From positions 5,406 to 69,405 of the IMG/VR virus record IMGVR_UViG_3300032326_000865: a stretch of 64,000 nucleotides of DNA, one strand, 5' to 3'. Position 1 is the first letter of the stretch, and every line of letters begins with the position of its first letter. The notes under the pieces are model-generated. The model searched no databases. It had not been told where the DNA came from and saw only the letters and a program-made list of their open reading frames with translations. Of this stretch, positions 1,632 to 56,900 are shown piece by piece. Source of the stretch: a virus. Made by a program: the position numbers and the translations under genes.

Positions 1632-2691
1632 AGATAGTCTGAACTAGCTCAAATTGACCAGATTCAAACGCCTTGTCAGTGAGGTGCATTGCGCCGTCGT
1701 AATAGTAGGCAACGACATTAGAATCACTAGAATCAACGCGATGGATCTGACAGTCCACTCTGTAGCCAGATTGCTCAAGAAAGTCGCAAGCGTCTTGAAC
1801 CATGAGCTTTTCATCATCAGTCATTTCCTTAATGGCAAATCCAGAAGAGGGATTACGAAGACGAAGAATGTTGGCGATTTTAGGATTCAGTGAAGTTGGG
1901 CGCTTCTTCCAAACTTCATTGACGGTTTCCTCCATTTCTTTGGACCAAGTATTGTCGTAATCAAACTCAGACTCAATACCTTTGGAGGTGATGAGCTTTT
2001 CAATTAGGCTCTTGTCCTTGAGGTGTTTACAAATAGCCACACCTACAGTGTAACGGAACGCGTAGATGTTTGCCATCGTACGGTCTTCCGTCAGGTCAAG
2101 ATGAGAAAGAATCTCGTAAGACCAATTGGCTTGCTGAAGCTCAGAAACTTTAACACCGCGAAACCAAACGTCACCCTTGCCAGTGTAGAAATTGACAGTA
2201 TTGGTCTTAGCAATTGGCTCACGATCACCAATAAAGATACGATCATTATTCTTGTGAGAATCAATGATTTCTGGACCAGTGACGACAATAGAAGTTCCAG
2301 CACTCAAAGGGCCACTTGCCAGAAGGCATACCCCAGACTCGTCCATGGTATTGGACATGAGCTCGCGATATGCTTGATCAACAGTCCACTTGAATCCGTA
2401 GTGAGTCGTGAATGCAAGGTGCTTGCCATTGCAAAGAACACGCTGGAACTCTTGACCACGGAATTCCATTTTCTCGAGACTGAACTCATAAACTTTACCA
2501 GATTCGCAATGGATTGTAACTTCGTGTCCAGTTCGGAGAAGCACTGCGATTGCATACTTAAATCCAGTTCCAAACATTCCAATGCTCTCTTCATTGGTCT
2601 TTACTGACAGACCCATAAGCTCCCAAGCACCGGGATTGATTTCTCCGTTAGTATGGAACACTACGGATTTGTTTTCTTGAATTGTGTTCAT
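1519..2691 (-). CDS. GHKL (HATPase/Hsp90-like) ATPase with a degenerate C-terminal zincin-like motif
   Basis: SIGMFGTGFKYAIAVLLR lid motif, RELMSNTMDE motif, C-terminal IFEESAHH...F. Confidence 0.75.
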   Translation of the reverse strand: MNTIQENKSVVFHTNGEINPGAWELMGLSVKTNEESIGMFGTGFKYAIAVLLRTGHEVTIHCESGKVYEFSLEKMEFRGQEFQRVLCNGKHLAFTTHYGFKWTVDQAYRELMSNTMDESGVCLLASGPLSAGTSIVVTGPEIIDSHKNNDRIFIGDREPIAKTNTVNFYTGKGDVWFRGVKVSELQQANWSYEILSHLDLTEDRTMANIYAFRYTVGVAICKHLKDKSLIEKLITSKGIESEFDYDNTWSKEMEETVNEVWKKRPTSLNPKIANILRLRNPSSGFAIKEMTDDEKLMVQDACDFLEQSGYRVDCQIHRVDSSDSNVVAYYYDGAMHLTDKAFESGQFELVQTIFEESAHHKGFVDYSLSFQQYLIKQVIVQSRKRIKKAI

Positions 2692-2705
2692 TACATTAAA
2701 TGCTC

Positions 2706-2720
2706 AAGCCCGAAGGGCTT
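2706..2720 (-). promoter_or_regulatory. Conserved hairpin motif, copy 2 (aagccc-gaa-gggctt)
   Basis: Compensatory stem change relative to other copies; 15 nt upstream of the ATPase ATG. Confidence 0.55.
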
Positions 2721-2868
2721 TGTTGTTTTATTGATTTAAAAGAACGTGCGACGCAGCCGACCGCTAGCGCTGCGGATGGTCGGGGGTGTTATTCATTGCG
2801 GGGTATTGGGGAGTTATTGCGGACTTGTGGTTTAGAAGGTCTTTCAAGCGGAAGGGAGTGAAGATCCC

Positions 2869-3369
2869 ATGAATCGAATCGAAGCAGCAGAGGAATGGAT
2901 ATCCACCCAATCTGAGGCAGCACGAACGACGCTCGCCAAAGCCATAGCAGGAGCGTGGACTCTGGCGCTTCCACTGTTGCTATCGTTGTCAGGGTTATCC
3001 ACAGCAAACAAAATCCTAGGTAGTGTCCTCTGGGTTTCAGCGACGCTGAATTTATTTCTTCTCGTGCGGGTGTGCTGGCATCGAACACAGAACAGGCGAC
3101 GTGAAGTCGATCAAGCCAAGTTACCTGAACCACCTTCACTTGATGGTTTTGACTTGAGCGTTTTGATCCGATTGGTTGCATACGACGTAGGGTCAGGAGT
3201 TCACAGACTCGCGAACGACATGGGCGTAGAGTCCTTTAAGGTTTCGCACAGCACCGACAAACTGCTGGCCTGCGGCTATGTGGATTACCTCAGAGAATCG
3301 TCGTCCGGTTCGGTTTACCGCGCCAATGCCGCAGGACGTTCGCGGTGTCTCAACCCACCGAAGAAATGA
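2869..3369 (+). CDS. Cassette-borne membrane protein with a C-terminal winged-HTH-like domain
   Basis: GGGAG RBS; two hydrophobic segments; VHRLANDMGV...DKLLACGYV; stop 5 nt before the first attC. Confidence 0.7.
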   Translation: MNRIEAAEEWISTQSEAARTTLAKAIAGAWTLALPLLLSLSGLSTANKILGSVLWVSATLNLFLLVRVCWHRTQNRRREVDQAKLPEPPSLDGFDLSVLIRLVAYDVGSGVHRLANDMGVESFKVSHSTDKLLACGYVDYLRESSSGSVYRANAAGRSRCLNPPKK

Positions 3370-3374
3370 AGAGC

Positions 3375-3504
3375 AACGAACAAGGCGTGCCATACAACCG
3401 CTACCAGCCCTACTGTCGGCGGAGTCTTGGCGTGGCTTCATGGCTTCACCCCCGTTTCGAAGCTGGCTCTCGCTGGTAGCGGTGTATGCACTTTGACGTT
3501 CAGC
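3375..3504 (+). repeat. attC-like site 1
   Basis: AACGAAC...GTTCAGC; left arm tgcCatacaAccgctaccagc pairs with gctggtagcggtgtatgca, leaving two unpaired bases (C, A). Confidence 0.85.
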
Positions 3505-3803
3505 TCATAAAATCCATCGGGGCGCTTTTTGAATAGGTGGGCTCGATTAGGGTCAACGTGCGCCCGCAATCCGCCTTCCAACGGTTTCGGCAGCCGCTCG
3601 AACGTGGTCAGTTGCTTTTCCTGATTTTCCCAGAAACGGATTGAGTATGCCGCGCCGATGATGTTCCCGAGGATCTGATCGACCGGACCGAACACGCCTC
3701 CCTTGTGCTCGTATGGTGTGATTTCGCGGAGATTTGACCACGCGATGTCGATGCGTTGGCCGGGTTTGAGGCTTCCTACAAGTTGGATGAGTCGTTGTTT
3801 CAT
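3438..3803 (-). CDS. Hypothetical protein, antisense cassette gene (MKQRLIQL...)
   Basis: ATG at 3803; C-terminus reads through the right arm of attC1 and stops in its loop. Confidence 0.7.
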   Translation of the reverse strand: MKQRLIQLVGSLKPGQRIDIAWSNLREITPYEHKGGVFGPVDQILGNIIGAAYSIRFWENQEKQLTTFERLPKPLEGGLRAHVDPNRAHLFKKRPDGFYELNVKVHTPLPARASFETGVKP

Positions 3804-3818
3804 GGTGATTCGAGCAAA

Positions 3819-3905
3819 GCTGAACAAGTCGCGGATGGCGACGGCGATCAGCCGTCAATTTGATTTCAATCTCCAGCGCGCCGCGCCATCGCTGGATCGT
3901 TCAGC
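3819..3905 (+). repeat. attC-like site 2
   Basis: GCTGAAC...GTTCAGC; arms gcGgatggcgAcggcg / cgccgcgccatcgc. Confidence 0.85.
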
Positions 3906-4179
3906 TCACTGATTCGGGCGTGTATTCGACGACCGCTTCCATCTTGGCCAAGTAGTGGATTCGAATGTTCCGCGATGGTCTGCCGCGCCCATCGGTTGCC
4001 CAGTAGATCACCTTGACGGAGCCGGACCAATCAGGCTTCGGCTCGAACTGCTTTTCGTCGTCGTAATCGACCTCAACGGTCATCTCGAAGCGCTTGATTC
4101 CTTGCGCTTCCGCGAGGGCGGCGGCGGCTTTGGCGAAACCCTCAAGCGAGGGCGGGATTGTTGGTTTGGTGGCGTTCAT
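3901..4179 (-). CDS. Hypothetical protein, antisense cassette gene
   Basis: 92-aa ORF whose TGA overlaps the R' box of attC2. Confidence 0.7.
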   Translation of the reverse strand: MNATKPTIPPSLEGFAKAAAALAEAQGIKRFEMTVEVDYDDEKQFEPKPDWSGSVKVIYWATDGRGRPSRNIRIHYLAKMEAVVEYTPESVS

Positions 4180-4195
4180 AGGTAGTTCGGGGAAA

Positions 4196-4282
4196 GCTGA
4201 ACAAGAAGATGGTGGAGACGGCGATCAGCCGTCAGATGGAAGCGGAGCTTGTTCCGGCCGCTCCACATCAGGGACGTTCGTG
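4196..4282 (+). repeat. attC-like site 3
   Basis: GCTGAAC...GTTCGTG; arms gatGgtggagAcggc / gccgctccacatc. Confidence 0.85.
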
Positions 4283-4509
4283 CTACGGAATTCCAGAGCC
4301 TCGCGGTTGAGTTCAGGCCGGAGCTTGTATCGACCACAGCAGTTGCACCTCCATTCGGATCGCATCCCGTTGTGGTAGTTGATCTGATCGCCGTAGATGT
4401 TGCGGACGAAGCGGTCCACATGCCCGCCAGTTTTCCAGCAGTAGTGCCGCGCCCGAAGAGCACGAACAAGTCGCGGCAGAGAAACCGCCCATAATCTTTT
4501 CAATTTCAT
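4225..4509 (-). CDS. Small Cys/His protein (RNIYGDQIN...RSEWRCNCCG), antisense cassette gene
   Basis: ATG in the loop of attC4, stop in the loop of attC3; CxxC motif. Confidence 0.65.
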   Translation of the reverse strand: MKLKRLWAVSLPRLVRALRARHYCWKTGGHVDRFVRNIYGDQINYHNGMRSEWRCNCCGRYKLRPELNREALEFRSTNVPDVERPEQAPLPSDG

Positions 4510-4557
4510 TTCATTGGCCTTTCTTGCGCGGCGGTGCCTGCGCTGTTGTCGTTCATC
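4461..4557 (+). repeat. attC-like site 4
   Basis: CACGAAC...GTTCATC; imperfect arms gcggcag..accgcc / ggcggtgcctgcgc. Confidence 0.8.
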
Positions 4558-4753
4558 CAATAATTTGGCATTCGGGCGGGTAGTAATCGAACATGCAGAC
4601 CACATTGTGGTGATCCAGTTTCAGCTTCAGGAAGCAGTCATCCGTTCCGACGACCATTCCCACATGCGGCGTTTTCCCGTCGCGTTCGACCATCACCTCG
4701 CAGCCGAGCGTGAAGGACGTTCCGAACATTTCGTTGATTTCTTCGAGCGTCAT
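4553..4753 (-). CDS. Small SH3/KOW-like hypothetical protein, antisense cassette gene (MTLEEINEMF...)
   Basis: ATG at 4753 just inside the cassette; TGA overlaps the R' box of attC4. Confidence 0.65.
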   Translation of the reverse strand: MTLEEINEMFGTSFTLGCEVMVERDGKTPHVGMVVGTDDCFLKLKLDHHNVVCMFDYYPPECQIIG

Positions 4754-4758
4754 AAGAG

Positions 4759-4845
4759 GATGAACAAGTTGGTGGATGGAACGGCGAGGAAGTCTATTGG
4801 TGAGGCGGCGCTGGTTCGCGCCGTCCATCACCATCGGCGTTCGGC
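4759..4845 (+). repeat. attC-like site 5
   Basis: GATGAAC...GTTCGGC; arms tggtGgatggAacggcg / cgccgtccatcacca. Confidence 0.85.
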
Positions 4846-5084
4846 TTAACTGAAATCTTCCCGTTTTCGTTCCAAACCATCAGCGGCCATTTGTGATCGT
4901 TTCGATTCTTGGACTCGCAAGCCAGGCACACCACCGACAGCAGCTTGTCCCAGGCGTCGCCCATCGTCTCGCCGCTCACCTCCACATGAACAACGAACGC
5001 CGAACAAGGCGCGGCAGCGGCAACCCCCGACCCGTCATCGGTCGGAGTTGCCGGGGTGGATTCTTGGATAGGTTCAGGGGTCAT
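4794..5084 (-). CDS. Hypothetical protein, antisense cassette gene (MTPEPIQEST...)
   Basis: Starts in the loop of attC6 (ATGA overlap) and ends in the loop of attC5. Confidence 0.6.
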   Translation of the reverse strand: MTPEPIQESTPATPTDDGSGVAAAAPCSAFVVHVEVSGETMGDAWDKLLSVVCLACESKNRNDHKWPLMVWNENGKISVKPNADGDGRREPAPPHQ

Positions 5085-5126
5085 GTTCGTTCTCGGTCGG
5101 GGTTGCCTGCGCTTGGGATGTTCTCG
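4999..5126 (+). repeat. attC-like site 6
   Basis: GCCGAAC...GTTCTCG; arms gcggcagcggcaacccccgacc / ggtcggggttgcctgcgc. Confidence 0.8.
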
Positions 5127-5494
5127 GGATCGAATGTTCCGTCCCGGTGGTCGTAGCGAGCGGCCAGATCGGGGATGACTGGCGTGCCTTTCGCGTCGAG
5201 CTTCAAAGTGGCGGCGCGAAACAGCCGTTCGATTTCCGCCACGATCAAGGCACCAGCTTTGACCAGGTTCCGAACAGGATCTTCGCTGGGTCTCCATGCC
5301 TCGTCTTCAAACGGCCAATGGTCTTCGCAGTCGCCCAGATTGTGGCCGTTGTTCCAGAGCACGGCTTCGTGCGTGTAGCACATTGCGGCCACGGCGATTT
5401 CGCCGTGGATGTGCTCGTCATCGTGCGCGGCGGCGTAGCCCAGCGAGCGTTGGTTTGCTCTCTCAAGTTCGATCAGTTCAAGTTCGGTTTTCAT
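5081..5494 (-). CDS. Conserved phage protein (ERxxQ...HDDxH...WP...RNLVKAGALIVAEIERL family)
   Basis: Recognisable widespread phage family; C-terminus reads into attC6. Confidence 0.8.
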   Translation of the reverse strand: MKTELELIELERANQRSLGYAAAHDDEHIHGEIAVAAMCYTHEAVLWNNGHNLGDCEDHWPFEDEAWRPSEDPVRNLVKAGALIVAEIERLFRAATLKLDAKGTPVIPDLAARYDHRDGTFDPENIPSAGNPDRERT

Positions 5495-5628
5495 TTCGTT
5501 GTGATTTCGACGTTTCGGATGATCCATGCGACGATCTCACCAAGCTTCCACATGGCCAGAGGCAGGGAGATTAGGAGCGCGATTCCGAGGACCTTGAAGC
5601 CTCTCCAGATTCCTGAGAATTGATTCAT
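5491..5628 (-). CDS. 45-aa membrane peptide (MNQFSGIWRGFKVLGIALLISLPLAMWKLGEIVAWII...)
   Basis: Hand-translated; ATGA overlap with the next gene. Confidence 0.6.
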   Translation of the reverse strand: MNQFSGIWRGFKVLGIALLISLPLAMWKLGEIVAWIIRNVEITTK

Positions 5629-5795
5629 GCCGGGCTCTCGTCCTCCAGTGTCCGGCGGAACGAGCCGGGTTGTTTCGGGTGCATGTCGTAGTGGGCTCCC
5701 GACCCCGAGAGAAATCCCGGCTTTAGTTCGACGTGCGAGGCGGCTTCCCGCCCGTCCCGCGTTTTGTATTTTTTTGTGATGTCAATCATGGTTTT

Positions 5796-6098
5796 TTAAA
5801 TGACTTCTCTAAACAAACGGTAGTTTGCTTTAGCTTTGTGATTCTCTGGTTCTTGAGTGAAATCAACATGATGATTTCTTATACAAATCCAGCATTCAAG
5901 CGGTTCTTTGTCTTCAATTAGATCAAATGAACTGTATTCTGATGATGATTCAAAAAACTGACCATTTACATTATGGTTTAAAGCTTCACCTGTTGTAAGT
6001 CCGATTGATACAACAGGTTGACTTCCCGGAGCATCAATACATAAAATTCGAGCTAGCTCTCCGTTTCGATAACGGTATTTTTTATTCAGCCGGATTTT
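5796..6098 (-). CDS. Hypothetical phage protein (KKYRxRNGxxARILCxD family)
   Basis: Motif match; start at internal ATG (MKIRLNKK). Confidence 0.75.
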   Translation of the reverse strand, partial: KIRLNKKYRYRNGELARILCIDAPGSQPVVSIGLTTGEALNHNVNGQFFESSSEYSSFDLIEDKEPLECWICIRNHHVDFTQEPENHKAKANYRLFREVI

Positions 6099-6627
6099 CA
6101 TTGTTTTTTCTAAATAAGTTTTCTTTTCTGGCTTCCTTCCAAGCTTTAATTGCTTTTTCTGATTCATTTGTTTCATCTGGTCCATCCAGCCAAGCTAGAA
6201 TCTCAAGCGAAATAGCAAGCCTGTCAGCAAGTTCTCTTTCTGCATTTAGCTTTACTTGTAGTTGCCGGTTAATCGAAGAGAGCTTGGACTTGTTTTTGAT
6301 CTCTTCCAGCTCTTCTTCTAGGCTTTTGATTGTTTCTGCTTGTTCTTTTTTGAACTCTTCACAGCAAGATTCTGTTGAAGTGAGTCCTTCTAAATTAAAG
6401 CCTTCCCTGAGAAGCTTCACTTCTTCTTCAAGTTCTCGCATTCTTTTCGATTGAAGCGCATAAAGACCACGACGGAAATCTAAGTCTGAAGAAGTTTCTA
6501 TGAAATCTTCTTCTAGCTTTGCAATGATTGGTTCAATTACTTCAAGGAAGAAGTCAGGATCGTACGATCCTTCGTCGTTGATTATTGAAACAATTGAATT
6601 TGTTATTGGTGTCCGCGGGTCACTCAT
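6082..6627 (-). CDS. Coiled-coil protein of the TPRTD / AERxLADxLA paralog family
   Basis: MSDPRTPIT..., LNAERELADRLA, AIKAWKEAR shared with the 61.0-62.7 kb genes. Confidence 0.75.
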   Translation of the reverse strand: MSDPRTPITNSIVSIINDEGSYDPDFFLEVIEPIIAKLEEDFIETSSDLDFRRGLYALQSKRMRELEEEVKLLREGFNLEGLTSTESCCEEFKKEQAETIKSLEEELEEIKNKSKLSSINRQLQVKLNAERELADRLAISLEILAWLDGPDETNESEKAIKAWKEARKENLFRKNNENPAE

Positions 6628-7039
6628 TGGTCCAGAGGTTTAGTGTTTTCAGGAAGGCTTCAGCACGTTGGGCGGCGGTTGCTGACCTGAATCTCTGCAT
6701 GTCGCACGCATTATTTGACGACAATCTGGCACCAACAACCGACTCTAACACCTCGGAATAATGATGGTCGTTTTCATCATTCAGCGACTTTTCCGCAGCG
6801 TGCATCGCGTTGAGGTCGTTGAGGTAGTCTAGCAAGCGGATGCGGGAGACTTCAGACCCGTGAAACACTTCCGTTCGCGGAATCTCCTCAATGTCGAATG
6901 GAGGTTTTCCGACCGGAGTCTTAAGATGCTTTTCGGGGAGCGATGAGCCCCATGCTCCATACACGGGGAGATTCAAGTAGATCATGTCTGTCCACCCGCA
7001 AGCCTCTGCGATGGCGATTCTTTGTGCTTCTGGTGTCAT
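6620..7039 (-). CDS. Phage protein (QRIAIAEACGW...DYLNDLNAMHxAE family), copy 1
   Basis: Paralog of 62973-63311. Confidence 0.8.
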   Translation of the reverse strand: MTPEAQRIAIAEACGWTDMIYLNLPVYGAWGSSLPEKHLKTPVGKPPFDIEEIPRTEVFHGSEVSRIRLLDYLNDLNAMHAAEKSLNDENDHHYSEVLESVVGARLSSNNACDMQRFRSATAAQRAEAFLKTLNLWTNE

Positions 7040-28526: not shown

Positions 28527-29780
28527 ATGGCCATTTCCAATCCATCCCCAGAAAGATTTCCAGTAATTAGCTTTGTCGGAGCTGGTGCTGATCTTGTCTT
28601 TTGGGAGAAGGTTGATATGAAATTGCAGCGCGTTAAGAATGCTGTAATCGGCGATCCTCATTGGGACACCAAGAATTATCCTCATCATAGGCTTGTTTAC
28701 AAGACCCCTCACGATAGAGACGGGGATTGGCACAAGTACTTCTATGCCGCTGATCGGCAGAATCAAGATGACTACAATTTTGAGTTCTCTGCCGGTCAGC
28801 AGCTTGTTCGCTCTTACGTTATTCCAAGGGACAAATATTTCGCCAGAAATGCAACGGAAGCCGCTGCGGCTGTTCCATTGGTTGAAGATGAATTCATTGT
28901 TCCTCCGGTTGCCACATTGGATTCCCGTTTCAGTAAATTTGGTTTTGCTGATGACACTCTTGATCGAACTGAGACCGAACTCGATTTCATTTACGTTGTC
29001 GTCAGGAGGCGTTTCATTGAGCCTGTAACCTCTGATGTCGTCTTTAATGACGAACTGGATACCAATGTCACAATCACAAAAGAACTCGTCCCCAAGGGCA
29101 CTACAGCGCCAACACCGGTCGCTGGTCAATTGGTTGAGATTCGAAATGGAAACGTATTCCATGACGTAAAGATTACGCAATCCGTTGCGAGCACCACGAA
29201 TCGAACGCTCCCAAGTATTCCGGCATTCATTAATTTCAATTTCCCATCCAGACTTGATTCAGTGAATATCAGGTATGTTTCAGTTTACGCTGACAGCACT
29301 GAAGCTGCCCCCTCTTACAACGAGGATTATTACTTTGAATACAAGATCACTGAACCTAAGCCCGGCCCTTATCCCGCTATTGTTGAAAGGATTATTACAG
29401 CTAATCCGAATAGCGTTATTTCCGGTTTGAGTCTTGGCACACTTCCCGTCCCAAGAAGGGAGACCGTTGGTATTGTATATTACTGGTGGACTGCTGGGGT
29501 TAAAGGAAACCAAACTCAAGCTGTCGCTAGAGAAATTGAAATTCCATCCACGATTCATGGGGAAATCAACATTACCGTCAATGGAAGCACACCGGGAGGT
29601 TTGACTCCTGCTTTTGCGGGAAGATTGAACACCACTACACTCAACGCAACCAATGGTCACACATTGCTAAATGGGTTGGTGAATGCTCCTGTTAATGCTG
29701 ATGTCAGGAAACTTCCACTTGGGCTATACGAAGTCAGGATTACCAAATTGAACGTCACTGGTATTTATGGCACTCCCTGA
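28527..29780 (+). CDS. Putative tail structural protein
   Basis: 417-aa beta-rich ORF in the late block. Confidence 0.65.
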   Translation: MAISNPSPERFPVISFVGAGADLVFWEKVDMKLQRVKNAVIGDPHWDTKNYPHHRLVYKTPHDRDGDWHKYFYAADRQNQDDYNFEFSAGQQLVRSYVIPRDKYFARNATEAAAAVPLVEDEFIVPPVATLDSRFSKFGFADDTLDRTETELDFIYVVVRRRFIEPVTSDVVFNDELDTNVTITKELVPKGTTAPTPVAGQLVEIRNGNVFHDVKITQSVASTTNRTLPSIPAFINFNFPSRLDSVNIRYVSVYADSTEAAPSYNEDYYFEYKITEPKPGPYPAIVERIITANPNSVISGLSLGTLPVPRRETVGIVYYWWTAGVKGNQTQAVAREIEIPSTIHGEINITVNGSTPGGLTPAFAGRLNTTTLNATNGHTLLNGLVNAPVNADVRKLPLGLYEVRITKLNVTGIYGTP

Positions 29781-30957
29781 AGAACAAAATAATGGCAGAA
29801 TCCTCAAGGATTATGTGCCCACGGAACGCGTAGTTCAAAGTAACTACAGCACTCCAGATCCTGCTTATCCATCTCCGACTCCAAATGTAACCCCATTTAG
29901 CCCAGCTAAAGAACCGGCTCAAACATATCCAAGGGATGGCAATAAAAGCAAGAATGATAAGCCATGGAAGCCTTACGCTTTTGCTCTTGAAAAGCATCCT
30001 GAATCAACCGGAAAGTGCAGGGTTTATCACGGTAGATTGATTTCCCATGTAAACCCAATGAACTTCAACGTCGAAGGTGGCGGAAGTTCAAGTGGCGGCT
30101 CTGGCGGAATTGCTCGATACATTGACCAGACTGGCCTTTTCAAGCCGGGTGTCACCTCACCAGATCAATTCATCGGAGAAACCGGCTCTCAATTTAAAAC
30201 GGTTGATCTTGATTGGTCTGGAAATGTTTACCTTTATTGGGAAACAGATTCAATCGGTTACATCACAAAGTGTGAATTAAAGGGTCCAGAGGAACCTCCA
30301 TTCATTCCACTTCCATTGGCTGACGGAAATACCGTTGGTAAATTCTGGATTAAAATTGGGAATGTCCCTGCTGGCGATGGCGAGATTTCCCAAGAGGTAA
30401 GCAGTGATGTTTACTGGTATGGAGCATTCATCAGAACTGAAAATGGATCTGATTCTTCTAGTGCTGGCAGTGACTCTAGCGATTCGCAGTCGGATAGTTC
30501 GGTTAGTTCCGGCTCCGACCAGTCTGCTTCTTCTGATTCTGGTTCTGATAAATCTACTGCCATTGTGCCAATGCCTTGGCACACCAAAGGATATGGCGCT
30601 TTGTTCACAATGGAAAGCAACGAAGTTCTTTTTGACTTCGTGATGAGAGACATCAAAATTACAGGAAGGGAAACTTATGTGAAAATTGATTCCCGTTTCC
30701 TTTATGTGTGCGAACCAAACAGTATTGCTGTCACTGGAGCCCCTTGCGGGCCAGAACCATACCCTGTTGGTGCTTCCATTGAAGGGAACGTCCTTAAGCT
30801 TTCTGCTTACGCTAGAAAAGACCGCAGACCTAGTAAGGTGAGTCTCAAGCTTACTGGAATCCGTCGCGGCTTTGCTGGATATGACATGCCTGAACGTAGT
30901 AGAGCGCAGTTTGATGCTAACGAGAAATTCCTGAACTCTGCATACCCAGCTGAATGA
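29767..30957 (+). CDS. Putative tail protein with an S/D-rich linker
   Basis: SDSSSAGSDSSDSQSDSS linker; C-terminal AIVP..YGALFTMESNEVLF domain of the type seen on fibres. Confidence 0.65.
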   Translation: MALPEEQNNGRILKDYVPTERVVQSNYSTPDPAYPSPTPNVTPFSPAKEPAQTYPRDGNKSKNDKPWKPYAFALEKHPESTGKCRVYHGRLISHVNPMNFNVEGGGSSSGGSGGIARYIDQTGLFKPGVTSPDQFIGETGSQFKTVDLDWSGNVYLYWETDSIGYITKCELKGPEEPPFIPLPLADGNTVGKFWIKIGNVPAGDGEISQEVSSDVYWYGAFIRTENGSDSSSAGSDSSDSQSDSSVSSGSDQSASSDSGSDKSTAIVPMPWHTKGYGALFTMESNEVLFDFVMRDIKITGRETYVKIDSRFLYVCEPNSIAVTGAPCGPEPYPVGASIEGNVLKLSAYARKDRRPSKVSLKLTGIRRGFAGYDMPERSRAQFDANEKFLNSAYPAE

Positions 30958-55291: not shown

Positions 55292-55599
55292 ATATCTACG
55301 AAATCATCGCTATTTGGTTCTTCAACGCATTGGGTTACAATTTCCTCTGGAAAGAAGAAAAGTTGCCTGACTCTTGAAACTTCATAGATGTCAGGACTTC
55401 TTGTGTATCTAGCTTCTTTGACGGTGATCCTCAATCGGGTCCATCCTCTTATTACTCCTACTTGGACACTAATTGTTCTTCCTCGGGCAAATCGGCCACC
55501 TCCGACGAAAATATCGTAGGTGGCCTCAGAGCCTTCTCTTGGCTTAGATCCTTTGCCCTTGGTACGCAGGTGTCCTTTTAGCTGGTCTAAAGGTCTCAT
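55249..55599 (-). CDS. Hypothetical protein
   Basis: ATGA-coupled to dnaB. Confidence 0.6.
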   Translation of the reverse strand: MRPLDQLKGHLRTKGKGSKPREGSEATYDIFVGGGRFARGRTISVQVGVIRGWTRLRITVKEARYTRSPDIYEVSRVRQLFFFPEEIVTQCVEEPNSDDFVDIWEKTENHLTPPSQ

Positions 55600-56900
55600 G
55601 ATGTAACCCCATAAACAAAACGAAGAGTCGCCTTGTCCAGAATCAAAGGAAGGCGAACGCCTCCATGCCCGTTATGGCTGTCTTTGGCAATCAGGATGTG
55701 CTTGTGCTGTCCAAAGTCGGAAGCCTGCTTGTTGCGTTCCTGAACGATTGAAAGCCACCAGTCAGCATCTTCCTCAATTGCTCGAGCATTCTTGGTTTCA
55801 CCCTCAAAGTTCTCCTGACAGAGCACAATAATGGTAATCCCAAGCTCATCAGAAAGCTCTTGAAGGGTATTGGAGGTTCTTCTGAGCTCCATTTCGGCAG
55901 TCTCACCCTTGAAGCGATCACCACGAATCAGACCAATCTGGTCAACAAAAACAACCTTTACGCCATGGAGACGAACGTATCGCCGAATTTCAGCGATAAT
56001 CTCATGGATTCCGCGAGACTGAGGCTTGCGAATATGCAGATTGGACTCGTTGAGCTTCGTGACAGCTTTCCTGATGGCAATTAGCTCTTCTTTGGACAAC
56101 CCGGTGCGGTTCTGACTCTTGGCGTAGCCAACTGGATCGACAATGGCGGCATGGTGCAACCTAGAAGCTTGAATCACGGCTTTGGCAAAAGCACTAGATT
56201 CCGTGCGTTCAAGGATCAGGTAAAGACCACCCACATTAGAATCAAGAAGATTACCCCAAATCTCAACTGCCAAAGTAGATTTCCCAGAGCCACTGCGACC
56301 AGAGATAATCCCATAATGCTGAGGATGGAGACCACGAAGATGCTGATCAACAAGAGGAATGCCGAAAGGAATACCCATAGGCAGCTCCTTGCCAGCGATT
56401 TTAGCTTCGAATCCGTCAATGAACTCTTTGGATAGCCATTTAAGGTCGCGGACTGCTTTGATGCCAGAAGCGGCGTCAAAGACTTTAGTGATGGGTTCCG
56501 ACAGGAACTTTAGGTATTCTTCATTGGAGCAATCGTAGACGGCCTCTGTGGCGTTGCTGAGCACATCAATGGCGATTCGGCGAGCATACTTGGAACGAAG
56601 TTCTTCGTGATGCTGCTTGAGACCTTGACCTTGGGCGTAATTCAGAAGCGTTGCCAAATTCTCTGGTCCACCAACGCTATCCAAAAGACCCTTGTCATGA
56701 AGATGCTGCGCAAGAAGAGCAACATCATAAACCTTTGTCTCTTTGAGTGTCTTGAAGATCGTCTTAAGCGCGGAATTGAAAAACCAATCAACCTCCACGG
56801 TGTAATCCTCCATCAAAGACGGATCTTTGATGAAGGAAGAAAGGACAAACTTTTCAGAAACCAAGGAGTTTGGAATCTGTCTGTCTTCCATAATTACCAT
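55596..56900 (-). CDS. dnaB: DnaB-like replicative helicase
   Basis: N-terminal DnaB domain (LLDSVGG), GRSGSGKST, VFVDQIGL, AIEEDAD. Confidence 0.9.
   Translation of the reverse strand: MVIMEDRQIPNSLVSEKFVLSSFIKDPSLMEDYTVEVDWFFNSALKTIFKTLKETKVYDVALLAQHLHDKGLLDSVGGPENLATLLNYAQGQGLKQHHEELRSKYARRIAIDVLSNATEAVYDCSNEEYLKFLSEPITKVFDAASGIKAVRDLKWLSKEFIDGFEAKIAGKELPMGIPFGIPLVDQHLRGLHPQHYGIISGRSGSGKSTLAVEIWGNLLDSNVGGLYLILERTESSAFAKAVIQASRLHHAAIVDPVGYAKSQNRTGLSKEELIAIRKAVTKLNESNLHIRKPQSRGIHEIIAEIRRYVRLHGVKVVFVDQIGLIRGDRFKGETAEMELRRTSNTLQELSDELGITIIVLCQENFEGETKNARAIEEDADWWLSIVQERNKQASDFGQHKHILIAKDSHNGHGGVRLPLILDKATLRFVYGVTS

What the first reader, a model, noticed from the sequence alone, without database searches (positions are those of the whole stretch)
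3375..5126. Phage-borne integron-type cassette array: six attC-like sites, no integrase in view
Seen: six imperfect palindromes, each GAACAAG...GTTC, at 3375-3504, 3819-3905, 4196-4282, 4461-4557, 4759-4845 and 4999-5126. Sites 1, 2, 3 and 5 each have two unpaired bases on the left arm, the second always A (T on the bottom strand). Each right-hand box is the reverse complement of the next site's left box: gttcagct/agctgaac (twice), gttcgtgct/agcacgaac, gttcatcc/ggatgaac, gttcggc/gccgaac. In four of these five cases it does not match the site's own left box. Established: this is the footprint of circular cassettes integrated at G|TT by integron integrases (IntI) acting on bottom-strand hairpins. 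G-to-G units are 401, 377, 275, 288 and 281 bp. Inference: the phage early region gains, loses or reorders genes as cassettes using a host IntI in trans.
Basis: partly seen in the sequence, partly recalled or inferred. Interest (0 to 1): 0.92.

Follow-up and report, generated by a model that had tools for sequence, protein, structure and literature searches.

The report
Integron cassette array in a phage
A complete 69-kb phage genome carries six integron-type recombination hairpins that bound swappable gene cassettes but no integrase; phages with such arrays are already published, but here most genes lie backwards relative to textbook cassettes.

Summary
All six sites are genuine integron attC sites. 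Four have the exact geometry of the aadA1 attC. A covariance model built from three of them finds that textbook site in plasmid R46, and a family model not trained on site 6 finds site 6. Each right box matches the next site's left box at 8-9 of 9 bases.

The array lies in a 56% GC island (2791-5740) of a 45.5% GC, 69,405-bp phage genome with terminal repeats and no tyrosine or serine recombinase. Near-identical phage variants in other samples keep both flanks but carry other island content. Contigs break or join within a few bases of G|TT, skipping exactly 377 and 563 bp.

The same attC family sits beside integron integrases in Verrucomicrobiales genomes and in four other viral records.

Cassette genes 2-6 are antisense to their attC, unlike cassettes in bacterial arrays of the same family.

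Phage arrays without an integrase (CALINs) are published (Qi et al. 2023). I found no paper on the antisense layout. Earlier notes of this scan report it in other phages. Integrase action in trans is inferred, not shown.

The parts
2791..5740 (.). Variable GC-rich island that holds the array
   Evidence: GC is 0.562 against 0.455 for the rest of the genome (profile). In runs X2 and X3 the phage flanks 1800-2790 and 5741-6800 are present, but the contigs continue with unlike sequence inside the island.
2788..2790 (+). Left boundary GTT, where cassette content starts to differ between phage variants
   Evidence: Flank contigs of X2 and X3 match up to 2790 and then diverge. In X3 the next 30 letters match, 29 of 30 by eye, the start of a cassette that follows a GTT in viral record G001. 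No attI-like similarity was found.
2869..3369 (+). Cassette 1 gene (166 aa), sense to its attC (site 1): the textbook layout
   Evidence: 11 homologues. A homologue in viral contig L041 also lies sense between two attC sites. An X4 contig covers 2781-3394 with 28 differences. No family match.
3375..3504 (+). attC site 1 (AAC at 3379-3381, G|TT at 3498|3499)
   Evidence: 14 of 14 stem pairs, bulges C and A. R1 gives 36.9 bits, E=5.9e-7; it was not listed with filters off.
3438..3803 (-). Cassette 2 gene (121 aa), antisense to attC; its tail runs into site 1
   Evidence: 7 homologues besides itself. They stay alike up to ...GFYELN, where ELN is the R' box read on the minus strand, and the tails then diverge. 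The block 3503-3854 is 86.8% identical to viral record G001.
3819..3905 (+). attC site 2 (G|TT at 3899|3900)
   Evidence: 14 of 14 pairs, bulges G and A. Bottom-strand fold z-score -3.12.
3901..4179 (-). Cassette 3 gene (92 aa), antisense; its stop TGA lies in the R' box of site 2
   Evidence: 9 homologues of 60-92 aa. An X2 contig of 411 nt covers 3898-4279, which is the whole cassette.
4196..4282 (+). attC site 3 (G|TT at 4276|4277)
   Evidence: 13 of 14 pairs, bulges G and A.
4225..4509 (-). Cassette 4 ORF (94 aa), antisense; it starts in the loop of site 4 and ends in the loop of site 3
   Evidence: ORF and codon-position GC only. One weak PHROG match, E=0.0069. Orientation was called 'unclear' by the ORF-cover test.
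4461..4557 (+). attC site 4 (G|TT at 4551|4552), irregular stem
   Evidence: R1 E=2.6e-4. R2 gives 45.1 bits but was trained on this site. It fails the strict geometry scan.
4553..4753 (-). Cassette 5 ORF (66 aa from the ATG at 4753), antisense; its stop TGA lies in the R' box of site 4
   Evidence: ORF and codon-position GC only. No family match. Orientation 'unclear'.
4759..4845 (+). attC site 5 (G|TT at 4839|4840)
   Evidence: 14 of 14 pairs, bulges G and A. Its arms are nearly the same as those of an attC in the Luteolibacter marinus locus L033:16498-16590.
4794..5084 (-). Cassette 6 ORF (96 aa), antisense; it starts in the loop of site 6 and ends in site 5
   Evidence: ORF only. The cassette G4839..T5122 is one whole 284-nt contig in X3, and homology stops at 5122 in both X2 and X3.
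4999..5126 (+). attC site 6 (G|TT at 5120|5121), long loop, irregular stem
   Evidence: R2, not trained on it, gives 34 bits, E=7.5e-6 on the + strand. R1 and the strict scan do not find it.
5081..5494 (-). 137-aa gene of a widespread phage protein family, in the attC-less right part of the island
   Evidence: 10,958 representatives at E<=0.001. 60 phage records by tblastn. 9 PHROG families of unknown function. No Pfam, NCBIfam or PDB match.
5625..5789 (-). 54-aa ORF that spans the right boundary: its first 16 codons lie in the conserved flank, the rest in the variable island
   Evidence: Flank homology in X2 and X3 starts at 5741 and is preceded by unlike letters. ORF.
5650..5730 (+). Possible degenerate seventh site (GGAAC ... 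GTTC); not supported
   Evidence: Inverted repeat I9 at 5663-5676 / 5709-5722, 79% complementary. Fold z-score -1.19. R2 does not find it at E<=5.

Best explanation
The stretch is a genuine integron cassette array without an integrase (a CALIN). It sits in a hypervariable island of a complete phage genome that encodes no recombinase.

Six attC hairpins, with the window's + strand as top strand, bound units of 275-401 bp that begin at the TT of one G|TT and end at the G of the next. Cassette 1 has the textbook layout, with the gene sense and its attC behind it. In cassettes 2-6 the gene is on the opposite strand. The hairpin therefore sits in front of the gene and sometimes holds its start codon. 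All these genes run in the direction of the neighbouring phage genes.

Most likely mechanism (inferred). During infection, an integron integrase supplied by the host or by a co-resident (pro)phage folds the minus ('bottom') strands of the attC sites. It then recombines them at G|TT, excising, inserting and reordering cassettes. The phage thereby exchanges small accessory genes with a pool shared by other phages and by Verrucomicrobiales integrons.

Shown here: the sites, the box exchange, the cassette-level differences between natural variants, the absence of a phage recombinase, and the presence of this attC family next to IntI in bacteria. Not shown: the integrase reaction, the host, or what the cassette genes do.
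For: Geometry.
- Four sites have the canonical attC geometry, with no other hit in 128 kb of strand. They score 13-14 of 14 stem pairs; island shuffles give a mean of 0.04 hits.
- The same scanner finds the aadA1 and orfD attC sites of the class 1 integron of R46 on the gene-sense strand.

Covariance models.
- R1, built from sites 2, 3 and 5 only, finds sites 1 and 4. It also finds the aadA1 attC of R46 as its only hit in that 50-kb locus, E=4.1e-5.
- R2, built from 32 family sites without site 6, finds site 6 (E=7.5e-6) and aadA1 (E=1.6e-6). In the window it finds nothing else at E<=5 except a reverse-strand shadow.
- Over the 32 sites, 96.2% of cells pair. 17 of 18 pairs show changes on both sides. 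0 of 500 shuffles reach this, and slid controls pair at 33-41%.

Box exchange: 8-9 of 9 bases with the next site against 5-6 of 9 with the own box, site 2 excepted.

Turnover in natural variants.
- X2 and X3 contigs share the flanks up to 2790 and from 5741, but differ inside.
- Cassette 6 is a whole 284-nt contig (4839-5122).
- Cassette 3 lies in a 411-nt contig (3898-4279).
- X5 has joints that skip 377 and 563 bp, equal to the G-to-G distances, with only 5 and 1 shared letters at the joint.
- Tails of the 121-aa protein's homologues diverge right after the AAC of the box.
- The block 3503-3854 is 86.8% identical to an otherwise distant phage record.

Integrase.
- None in the phage.
- The same attC family occurs in 5 of 9 pattern-matched genome loci. 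By their record titles all five are Luteolibacter or 'Akkermansiaceae bacterium'.
- TIGR02249 scores over its cut-off in 3 of the 5 genomes searched. In L029 three to four attC sites lie beside such an integrase.
Against: - No recombination event was observed. The integrase in trans is an inference, and the host is unknown.
- IntegronFinder's own covariance model could not be run.
- All six R' boxes read GTTC, which departs from the published GTTRRRY consensus at position 4.
- Sites 4 and 6 fail the strict geometry scan.
- Bottom-strand folding is no better than shuffles for 3 of 6 sites.
- With filters off, R1 did not list site 1, although it did with default filters.
- There is no recognisable attI, and no clean cassette start, at the left end. 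The first letters of cassette 1 do not complement the left box of site 1.
- The right 620 bp of the island has no supported attC.
- The supporting contigs are short and shallow. X5 depth is 2.7-2.9, one joint has only 25 letters on its shorter side, and contigs cannot show which organism they come from.
- In G001 the shared block starts 4-5 nt from the expected G|TT, and that junction has no GTT.
- R2's alignment was fitted to the structure, which favours the pair counts.
Confidence: 0.8

Rival explanations
1. Fossil fragment. A piece of a bacterial integron array was captured once by illegitimate recombination. The sites are relics that no longer recombine in the phage.
For: The island has foreign GC content. 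The left end has no attI, and the right end has no supported attC. Sites 4 and 6 are irregular. There is no integrase in the phage. Qi et al. propose illegitimate recombination as a route into phages (section 3.4 read).
Against: Phage variants with near-identical flanks carry different cassettes. Single cassettes appear as separate contigs bounded at GTT. The skipped lengths equal the G-to-G units. One cassette is shared with a distant phage record at 86.8% identity. Four sites keep perfect geometry.
Confidence: 0.1
2. Module exchange by homologous recombination between co-infecting phages. The similar attC arms would serve as linker sequences, without any integron integrase.
For: Sites 2 and 3 share an 18-nt loop stretch, and the arms of several sites are alike. 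Phage mosaicism at short conserved linkers is well known (recalled, no call).
Against: The X5 joints share only 5 and 1 letters across the joint. The breakpoints sit at the GTT core rather than spread along the similar arms. The box-exchange pattern is what G|TT crossover predicts.
Confidence: 0.06
3. Assembly chimera. A bacterial integron fragment was wrongly joined into the phage contig.
For: There is a sharp GC step at both island ends. The record comes from a metagenome.
Against: In X2, another sample, a 5,871-nt contig joins the left flank to attC-array sequence. In X3 the flank runs into a cassette known from another phage. The record has terminal repeats and is rated complete. The island genes run with the flanking genes, and one ORF spans the right boundary.
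Confidence: 0.02
4. Not integron sites at all: REP-like palindromes or transcription terminators that resemble attC by chance.
For: attC sites are imperfect palindromes between genes, as terminators are. Folding z-scores are weak for three sites.
Against: The spacer and bulge geometry is exact on one strand only. The textbook attC is cross-detected. Compensatory changes support the stems. Boxes are exchanged between neighbours. The same family lies next to IntI in bacteria.
Confidence: 0.01

Closest known systems
CALINs (clusters of attC sites lacking an integron integrase) in phage genomes, including virulent phages: Qi, Rajabal, Ghaly, Tetu, Gillings 2023, PMC9892861 (abstract, section 3.4 and word finds read; supplements closed)
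   Same: Two or more attC sites in a phage with no intI. The cargo is orphan genes and, in relatives found here, DNA methyltransferases. The paper shows that IntI1 recombines 5 of 6 phage attC sites tested, so integrase action in trans is plausible.
   Different: The paper describes two of its virulent-phage arrays as typically oriented and does not mention genes antisense to attC. It used sequenced isolates from a phage genome collection. Here the phage is uncultured, natural variants differ at the GTT points, and the attC family links it to Verrucomicrobiales. I could not see its supplementary tables, so I cannot say whether any listed phage has the antisense layout.
Chromosomal integron of an 'Akkermansiaceae bacterium' MAG (L029), and arrays in Luteolibacter and Akkermansiaceae contigs L011, L016, L017, found here
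   Same: Same attC family: R2 scores 27.7-86.8 bits. AAC is followed by AAG, and the bulges are usually G and A. In L029 an IntI scoring 331 bits, over the 265 cut-off, lies divergent from the array.
   Different: Their cassette genes are sense to attC in 6 of 6 inter-site segments. In phage-associated arrays the count is 3 sense, 15 antisense and 8 unclear of 26. L011, L016 and L017 were not checked for prophage genes.
aadA1 and orfD attC sites of the class 1 integron of plasmid R46 (NC_003292; accession recalled, record fetched)
   Same: Identical layout: AAC, 5 nt, 3 bp, bulge, 6 bp, bulge A, stem, loop, stem, 6 nt, GTT. The models built from the phage sites detect the aadA1 site.
   Different: In R46 the first bulge is C; here it is G in 3 of 4 sites. 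The R46 R' boxes read GTTG/GTTA; here all read GTTC. The R46 genes are sense. The two OXA-2 attC sites of R46 were missed by both my scanner and the models.
Inverted integron-integrase group (certain Treponema spp.), as described in Cury et al. 2016, PMC4889954 (passages read)
   Same: An integron layout in which gene direction and integrase direction are not the textbook divergent pair.
   Different: [quoted passage not shown] In the phage-associated integrons found here (G007, L033) intI is on the strand opposite to the attC sites, as in textbook integrons. It is the cassette genes that are flipped.
Integrase-mediated insertion of cassettes outside att sites: preprint 10.1101/2022.09.11.507474 (search listing and start of abstract only)
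   Same: It offers a route by which a first cassette could enter a phage genome at a plain GTT, such as the left boundary at 2788-2790.
   Different: It was described for bacterial genomes, and I did not read the paper. Nothing here shows how the array first entered the phage.

Membership tests
Integron attC site | Inverted core boxes R'' (RYYYAAC) and R' (GTTRRRY) with crossover at G|TT (consensus as quoted in Qi et al.; RYYYAAC recalled) | tested here: met
   AAC and GTT are present in 6 of 6 sites. Position 4 of R' is C in all six, off the R consensus. Related arrays mix GTTC with GTTA and GTTG.
Integron attC site | Imperfect hairpin with unpaired central spacer (5 nt / 6 nt) and two extrahelical bases on the R''-L'' arm, which fix the recombined (bottom) strand | tested here: met
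   Strictly met in 4 of 6 sites, with no other hit in the window. The same scanner finds 2 of the 4 attC sites behind the four cassette genes (OXA-2, aadA1, OXA-2, orfD) of R46, on the sense strand. Sites 4 and 6 are irregular.
Integron attC site | Recognised by a covariance model of attC sites | tested here: met
   Home-made models only. R1 and R2 cross-detect the aadA1 attC, and R2 finds untrained site 6. IntegronFinder's attC model was not available, so that exact test was not run.
Integron attC site | Structure conserved through compensatory changes while sequence varies | tested here: met
   17 of 18 pairs show changes on both sides, and 96.2% of cells pair against 33-41% when partners are slid. 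The alignment was fitted to the model.
Integron cassette array | The R' box of each site is a hybrid: G from its own cassette, TTnnnn from the next, and so complementary to the next site's R'' | tested here: met
   5 of 5 junctions match the next site at 8-9 of 9 bases.
Integron cassette array | Cassettes are excised and inserted by IntI | not testable with these tools
   Indirect only: variants differ at the GTT points. Qi et al. showed that IntI1 acts on other phage attC sites.
CALIN | At least two attC sites and no integron integrase nearby (definition in Cury et al.) | tested here: met
   Six sites. 0 matches to TIGR02249, PF00589 and PF00239 in the whole genome.
Complete integron | intI, attI and a cassette promoter next to the array | tested here: not met
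   No intI. No similarity of the left flank to the intI-proximal regions of G007, L033 or L029.
Textbook cassette layout | Gene on the attC top strand, with the attC behind the gene | tested here: not met
   Met by cassette 1 only. The genes of cassettes 2 and 3 are antisense with homologue support. Cassettes 4-6 are antisense by ORF evidence, two of them 'unclear'.

The most novel reading that the evidence does not exclude
Phages of Verrucomicrobiales, and by this scan's earlier notes other phages too, may run a mirror-image form of the integron. Its cassettes are built with the attC in front of the gene, so whole arrays are read by phage promoters towards the integrase end rather than from a promoter beside attI.

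The cassettes would form a phage-adapted pool that moves between unrelated phages, both virulent-like and temperate or Mu-like. Some of these phages encode their own divergent integron integrase at the downstream end of the operon (G007; the Luteolibacter marinus prophage-like locus). Phages such as this one would borrow an integrase in trans.

In this layout the recombining strand of each attC is the non-template strand of the phage transcript, which may couple cassette exchange to phage transcription or replication.
Probability: 0.4. Interest if true: 0.85.

Novelty: new variant of a known kind. Interest (0 to 1): 0.6.

Why it matters
Integrons are known mainly as bacterial devices that stockpile resistance and defence genes. 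One paper has shown that phages can carry their recombination sites. This case adds three things.

- Cassette turnover is visible in nature. Near-identical phage genomes differ exactly at the G|TT points, and one cassette is shared with an unrelated phage.
- The sequence family of the attC sites points to a likely host group and a source of integrase (Luteolibacter and Akkermansiaceae), for a phage with almost no recognisable genes.
- Five of six cassette genes lie backwards relative to their recombination site. Cassettes of the same attC family in bacterial arrays are the normal way round.

If the backwards layout is general, phages have their own way of using integron machinery to swap small accessory genes, possibly counter-defence genes. 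Standard integron annotation, which expects the gene in front of the attC on the same strand, would mis-assign their cassettes.

Tried and rejected
**Folding energy.** It does not discriminate as a test. Only 3 of 6 bottom strands fold at z of about -2 or lower, and top strands fold about as well.

**Function of the cassette genes.** Pfam, PHROGs, NCBIfam, PDB sequences and the protein atlas gave nothing usable. The exception is the 137-aa gene, which belongs to a large phage family of unknown function.

**Close relatives of the phage.**
- blastn of the island against 50,697 phage records gave no match.
- The flanking 390-aa protein found no relative in viral contigs.
- The 92-aa cassette protein found none in viral contigs.
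- The 121-aa family found none in genome contigs and one non-cassette copy in a metagenome contig, L002.

**Phage type.** Of 10 large proteins tried, only 3 matched a PHROG: a DnaB-like helicase, a minor tail protein and an unknown family. I therefore do not call the phage N4-like.

**attI at the left end.** No significant similarity to the intI-proximal regions of G007, L033 or L029, and no significant fold.

**Seventh site at 5650-5730.** Not supported.

**Pattern matches in L010, L013, L014 and L015** (titled Erysipelotrichaceae, Alphaproteobacteria, Opitutales and Litoreibacter). R2 found no attC there at E<=0.01, so I count them as chance or partial matches.

**Sequencing runs.** Parts of the island without contig cover in X2-X5 say nothing. 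The X4 joints at 3865>4819 and 4247>4816, and the X2 joints at 4554>6642, 5062>5293 and 5333>5411, lie in loops or have short sides. I treat them as other members of the attC family, not as events in this phage.

**Integrase comparison.** In one search the protein I extracted for G002:C66 was in a wrong frame, and I dropped that row.

**Literature.** I found no paper on antisense cassettes in phage arrays with the searches and the word finds. This covers only the held library. The supplements of Qi et al. were closed.


Full report
**What the window is.** The window is bases 5406-69405 of a 69,405-bp virus record. The record has 123-bp direct terminal repeats and is rated 100% complete. Few of its proteins match known phage families. 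Of 10 large ORFs tried, 3 matched a PHROG: a DnaB-like helicase, a minor tail protein and one family of unknown function. The genome has no match to the integron-integrase model TIGR02249, to the general tyrosine-recombinase model PF00589 or to the serine-recombinase model PF00239. These models ring in 14, 14 and 12 of the 14 control genomes. 'No integrase in view' therefore holds for the whole phage.

**The observation.** I wrote a scanner for the textbook attC layout: AAC, 5 unpaired bases, 3 bp, one bulged base, 6 bp, one bulged base, further stem, then on the other arm 6 bp, 3 bp, 6 unpaired bases, GTT. Over both strands of the window the strict version returns four hits and nothing else. 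They are sites 1, 2, 3 and 5, all on the + strand, with bulges C/G/G/G and A/A/A/A. In a relaxed version these four score 13-14 of 14 stem pairs. Four other places score 12. Shuffled windows give 0-4 hits at 12 or more, and 200 shuffles of the island give a mean of 0.04. G-to-G distances are 401, 377, 275, 288 and 281 bp, as stated. Sites 4 and 6 are less regular and fail this scan.

**Are they attC sites?**
- As a positive control I fetched plasmid R46, whose class 1 integron is annotated. The same scanner finds the attC sites behind aadA1 and orfD, each at 13 of 14 pairs, on the strand of the genes. It misses the two OXA-2 sites, and six chance-level hits at 11-12 pairs lie elsewhere in 50 kb. 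The phage sites and a textbook attC thus share the same spacer and bulge layout, and the window's + strand corresponds to the attC top strand.
- Covariance model R1, built from sites 2, 3 and 5 alone, finds site 4 (E=2.6e-4) and site 1 (E=5.9e-7 with default filters; not listed with filters off). It finds the aadA1 attC of R46 as its only hit in that locus (E=4.1e-5).
- Model R2, built from 32 sites of this family in the window and other loci but without site 6, finds site 6 at 34 bits (E=7.5e-6) and aadA1 at 36.8 bits. In the window it finds nothing else up to E=5 apart from a reverse-strand shadow of site 5.
- Over the 32 sites, 96.2% of cells pair and 17 of 18 pairs carry changes on both sides. 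0 of 500 shuffles reach the observed values, and sliding the partners drops pairing to 33-41%. That alignment was fitted to the model, which favours the counts.
- Folding energies alone are weak evidence. Bottom-strand z-scores are -1.98, -3.12, -1.53, +0.12, -3.84 and -0.50.

**Box exchange.** The nine bases from each GTT complement the nine bases ending in AAC of the next site at 8, 8, 9, 8 and 8 positions. Against the site's own left box the counts are 5, 8, 5, 6 and 6, with site 6 at 5. Four of the nine positions are constant. This is the pattern left when circular cassettes recombine at G|TT. I note that it is symmetric and does not by itself say which strand is 'top'. The bulges and the 5/6-nt spacers say that.

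**Genes.**
- Cassette 1 (gene 2869-3369, + strand, ending 5 nt before site 1) has the textbook layout. The gene has 11 homologues.
- Between the other sites the plausible genes are on the minus strand: 3438-3803, 3901-4179, 4225-4509, 4553-4753 and 4794-5084. The first two have 7 and 9 homologues. The last three rest on ORF evidence only.
- Each of these genes starts just beside or inside the attC to its right. Each ends in the R' box of the site to its left, where the TCA of GTTCA is its stop in two cases, or inside that site.
- Homologues of the 121-aa protein stay alike up to ...GFYELN, where ELN is the box GAGCTGAAC read on the minus strand. Their tails then differ. The DNA block shared at 86.8% with viral record G001 runs from 3503, which is 4-5 nt from G|TT of site 1, through the gene into the left half of site 2.
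- Both results put the gene in one unit with the attC in front of it, not with the one behind it.
- None of the cassette proteins matches a family of known function.

**The island and its variants.** The array lies in an island of 56.2% GC in a genome of 45.5% GC. I laid contigs of four other runs on 1800-6800.
- Runs X2 and X3 come from the same study as the likely source but from other samples. They hold both flanks (1800-2790 and 5741-6800) with few differences, and their contigs continue inside the island with unlike sequence.
- The left break is at the GTT at 2788-2790. In X3 the next 30 letters equal, 29 of 30 by eye, the start of the cassette that follows a GTT in G001.
- Both runs share cassette 6. 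In X3 it is one 284-nt contig spanning 4839-5122, and in both runs homology stops at 5122, the GTT of site 6.
- In X2 a 411-nt contig spans 3898-4279, which is cassette 3.
- Run X5 comes from another study and also holds both flanks at 100% identity and depth 2-8. It has joints 3897>4275 (skips 377 bp, 5 letters shared at the joint, 25 letters on the shorter side) and 4272>4836 (skips 563 bp, 1 shared letter, 74 letters on the shorter side). These lengths equal the G-to-G distances of one cassette and of two cassettes.
- These are short, shallow contigs, and contigs cannot name their organism. Even so, the breakpoints fall where G|TT crossover predicts, and the shared letters are too few for homologous recombination.

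**Relatives elsewhere.**
- A degenerate pattern taken from sites 2 and 3 matched 4 viral contigs and 9 genome contigs.
- The models confirm whole attC sites in all 4 viral records (G001, G007, G008, G009) and in 5 of the 9 genome loci. Those five are titled Luteolibacter marinus (two loci), Luteolibacter sp. and 'Akkermansiaceae bacterium' (two loci). Luteolibacter is a member of the Verrucomicrobiales.
- TIGR02249 scores over its cut-off in 3 of the 5 genomes searched. In L029 an integrase of 331 bits lies divergent from three to four attC sites.
- A further viral contig, L041, carries four sites and a homologue of the cassette 1 gene.

**Orientation.** I made a crude test: which strand's ORF, with coding-like GC by codon position, covers more of each inter-site segment. 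Phage-associated arrays (window, G001, G007, L041 and the L. marinus locus L033) gave 3 sense, 15 antisense and 8 unclear of 26 segments. The bacterial arrays L029, L011, L016 and L017 gave 6 sense of 6. On the clear calls, Fisher's exact test gives p=0.0006.
- Segments within one array are not independent, and three of the bacterial loci were not checked for prophage genes.
- Antisense genes with homology support are two in the window, a DNA methyltransferase in G007, and an HNH endonuclease and a methyltransferase in L033.
- Sense genes with homology support are the cassette 1 gene and a DUF6973 protein in L029.

**Mechanism.** The most likely working is that of an integron array served in trans. 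An IntI made by the host, or by a co-resident phage or prophage, binds the folded minus strands and exchanges strands at G|TT. Cassettes then leave as circles and re-enter at another attC or at the left-end GTT.
- Shown: the sites, their family, the footprint, the natural variation, and the lack of a phage recombinase.
- Inferred: the enzyme, the strand, the timing and the benefit.
- The antisense layout means the phage's own minus-strand transcription can read cassettes 6 to 2 in sense, with no promoter beside an attI.
- In G007 and L033, which do encode IntI-like proteins, the cassette genes run towards the integrase gene. There the array and the integrase could be read as one phage operon.

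**Comparison and novelty.** Phage CALINs are published. Qi et al. 2023 report 17 of them, including in virulent phages, and show that IntI1 recombines 5 of 6 phage attC sites. The finding as worded is thus a new member of a known kind. What goes beyond that paper, as far as I could read it, is the cassette-level variation between natural phage variants, the link to Verrucomicrobiales integrons and the antisense layout. The paper does not mention antisense genes, and four searches of the held library found no description of such a layout. The 'inverted integron-integrase group' of Cury et al. is a different thing: there the integrase, not the cassette gene, is flipped relative to attC. Earlier notes of this scan report the same antisense layout in phages from other genomes, one of them with the Verrucomicrobiota attC family. 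I reached my reading before seeing them, and they are unchecked AI notes, not evidence.

**Limits.**
- IntegronFinder's model was not run.
- The host is a guess from attC family alone.
- The left end has no recognisable attI, and the right 620 bp has no supported attC.
- All R' boxes read GTTC rather than GTTR.

Noticed in passing
L036:9952-11001 (-) with attC sites at L036:11206-17807 (+) and L035:397-1004 (+); record G007: A 36-kb viral record has a large terminase, portal, major head and tape-measure proteins. It carries an IntI-like gene: TIGR02249 is its best family at 180 bits, under the 265 cut-off. The protein aligns through the segment I recall as IntI-specific. About 15 attC sites lie next to it. 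Their genes, including a DNA methyltransferase, run antisense to attC and towards the integrase gene. This looks like a phage-borne complete integron of the mirrored kind.
   Followed up: partly
L033:9919-18145 (Luteolibacter marinus contig, G002:C118): Mu-like transposase, transposition protein B and Gam genes are followed on the same strand by an HNH endonuclease gene and a DNA methyltransferase gene. These are separated by four attC sites on the opposite strand. An IntI-like gene follows (254 bits). A transposable-prophage-like element appears to hold a mirrored cassette array.
   Followed up: partly
L037:14698-14790 (record G009, 33,986 bp, terminal repeats, rated complete): A third complete phage record holds one strong attC of the same family (87.7 bits) and no TIGR02249 match at E<=0.001. 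Its surroundings were not examined.
   Followed up: no
window 5741-5789 and 5625-5740: The 54-aa minus-strand ORF at the right island border has its start and first 16 codons in the flank, which is conserved between variants. The rest lies in the variable part, so different variants would make different proteins from one fixed start.
   Followed up: partly
window 5741 (right border in X2/X3) and 2788-2795: In X2 and X3 the letters just inside the right border read, on the minus strand, G|TTATTCA. The window has the same eight letters on the + strand just inside its left border. I have no explanation. It may mark a shared core site or an inversion of a border cassette.
   Followed up: no
window 3303-3636, run X4: Site-1-like sequence is present in 9 contigs of run X4 at summed depth of about 150-257, with differing flanks, while the phage flanks are absent there. 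An abundant organism in that sample seems to hold many attC sites of this subfamily.
   Followed up: no
window 5081-5494 (-): The 137-aa protein belongs to a very large family: 10,958 cluster representatives at E<=0.001, and 60 phage records including Pseudomonas and Rhodobacter phages. It is often the C-terminal domain of longer proteins. It has no Pfam, NCBIfam or PDB match.
   Followed up: partly
Not examined.
   Followed up: no
window 55596-56900 (-) and G001 29192-29938: Apart from the shared cassette, the DnaB-like helicase is the only clear protein-level link between this phage and G001, at 36-43% identity. The two phages are distant relatives at most.
   Followed up: partly
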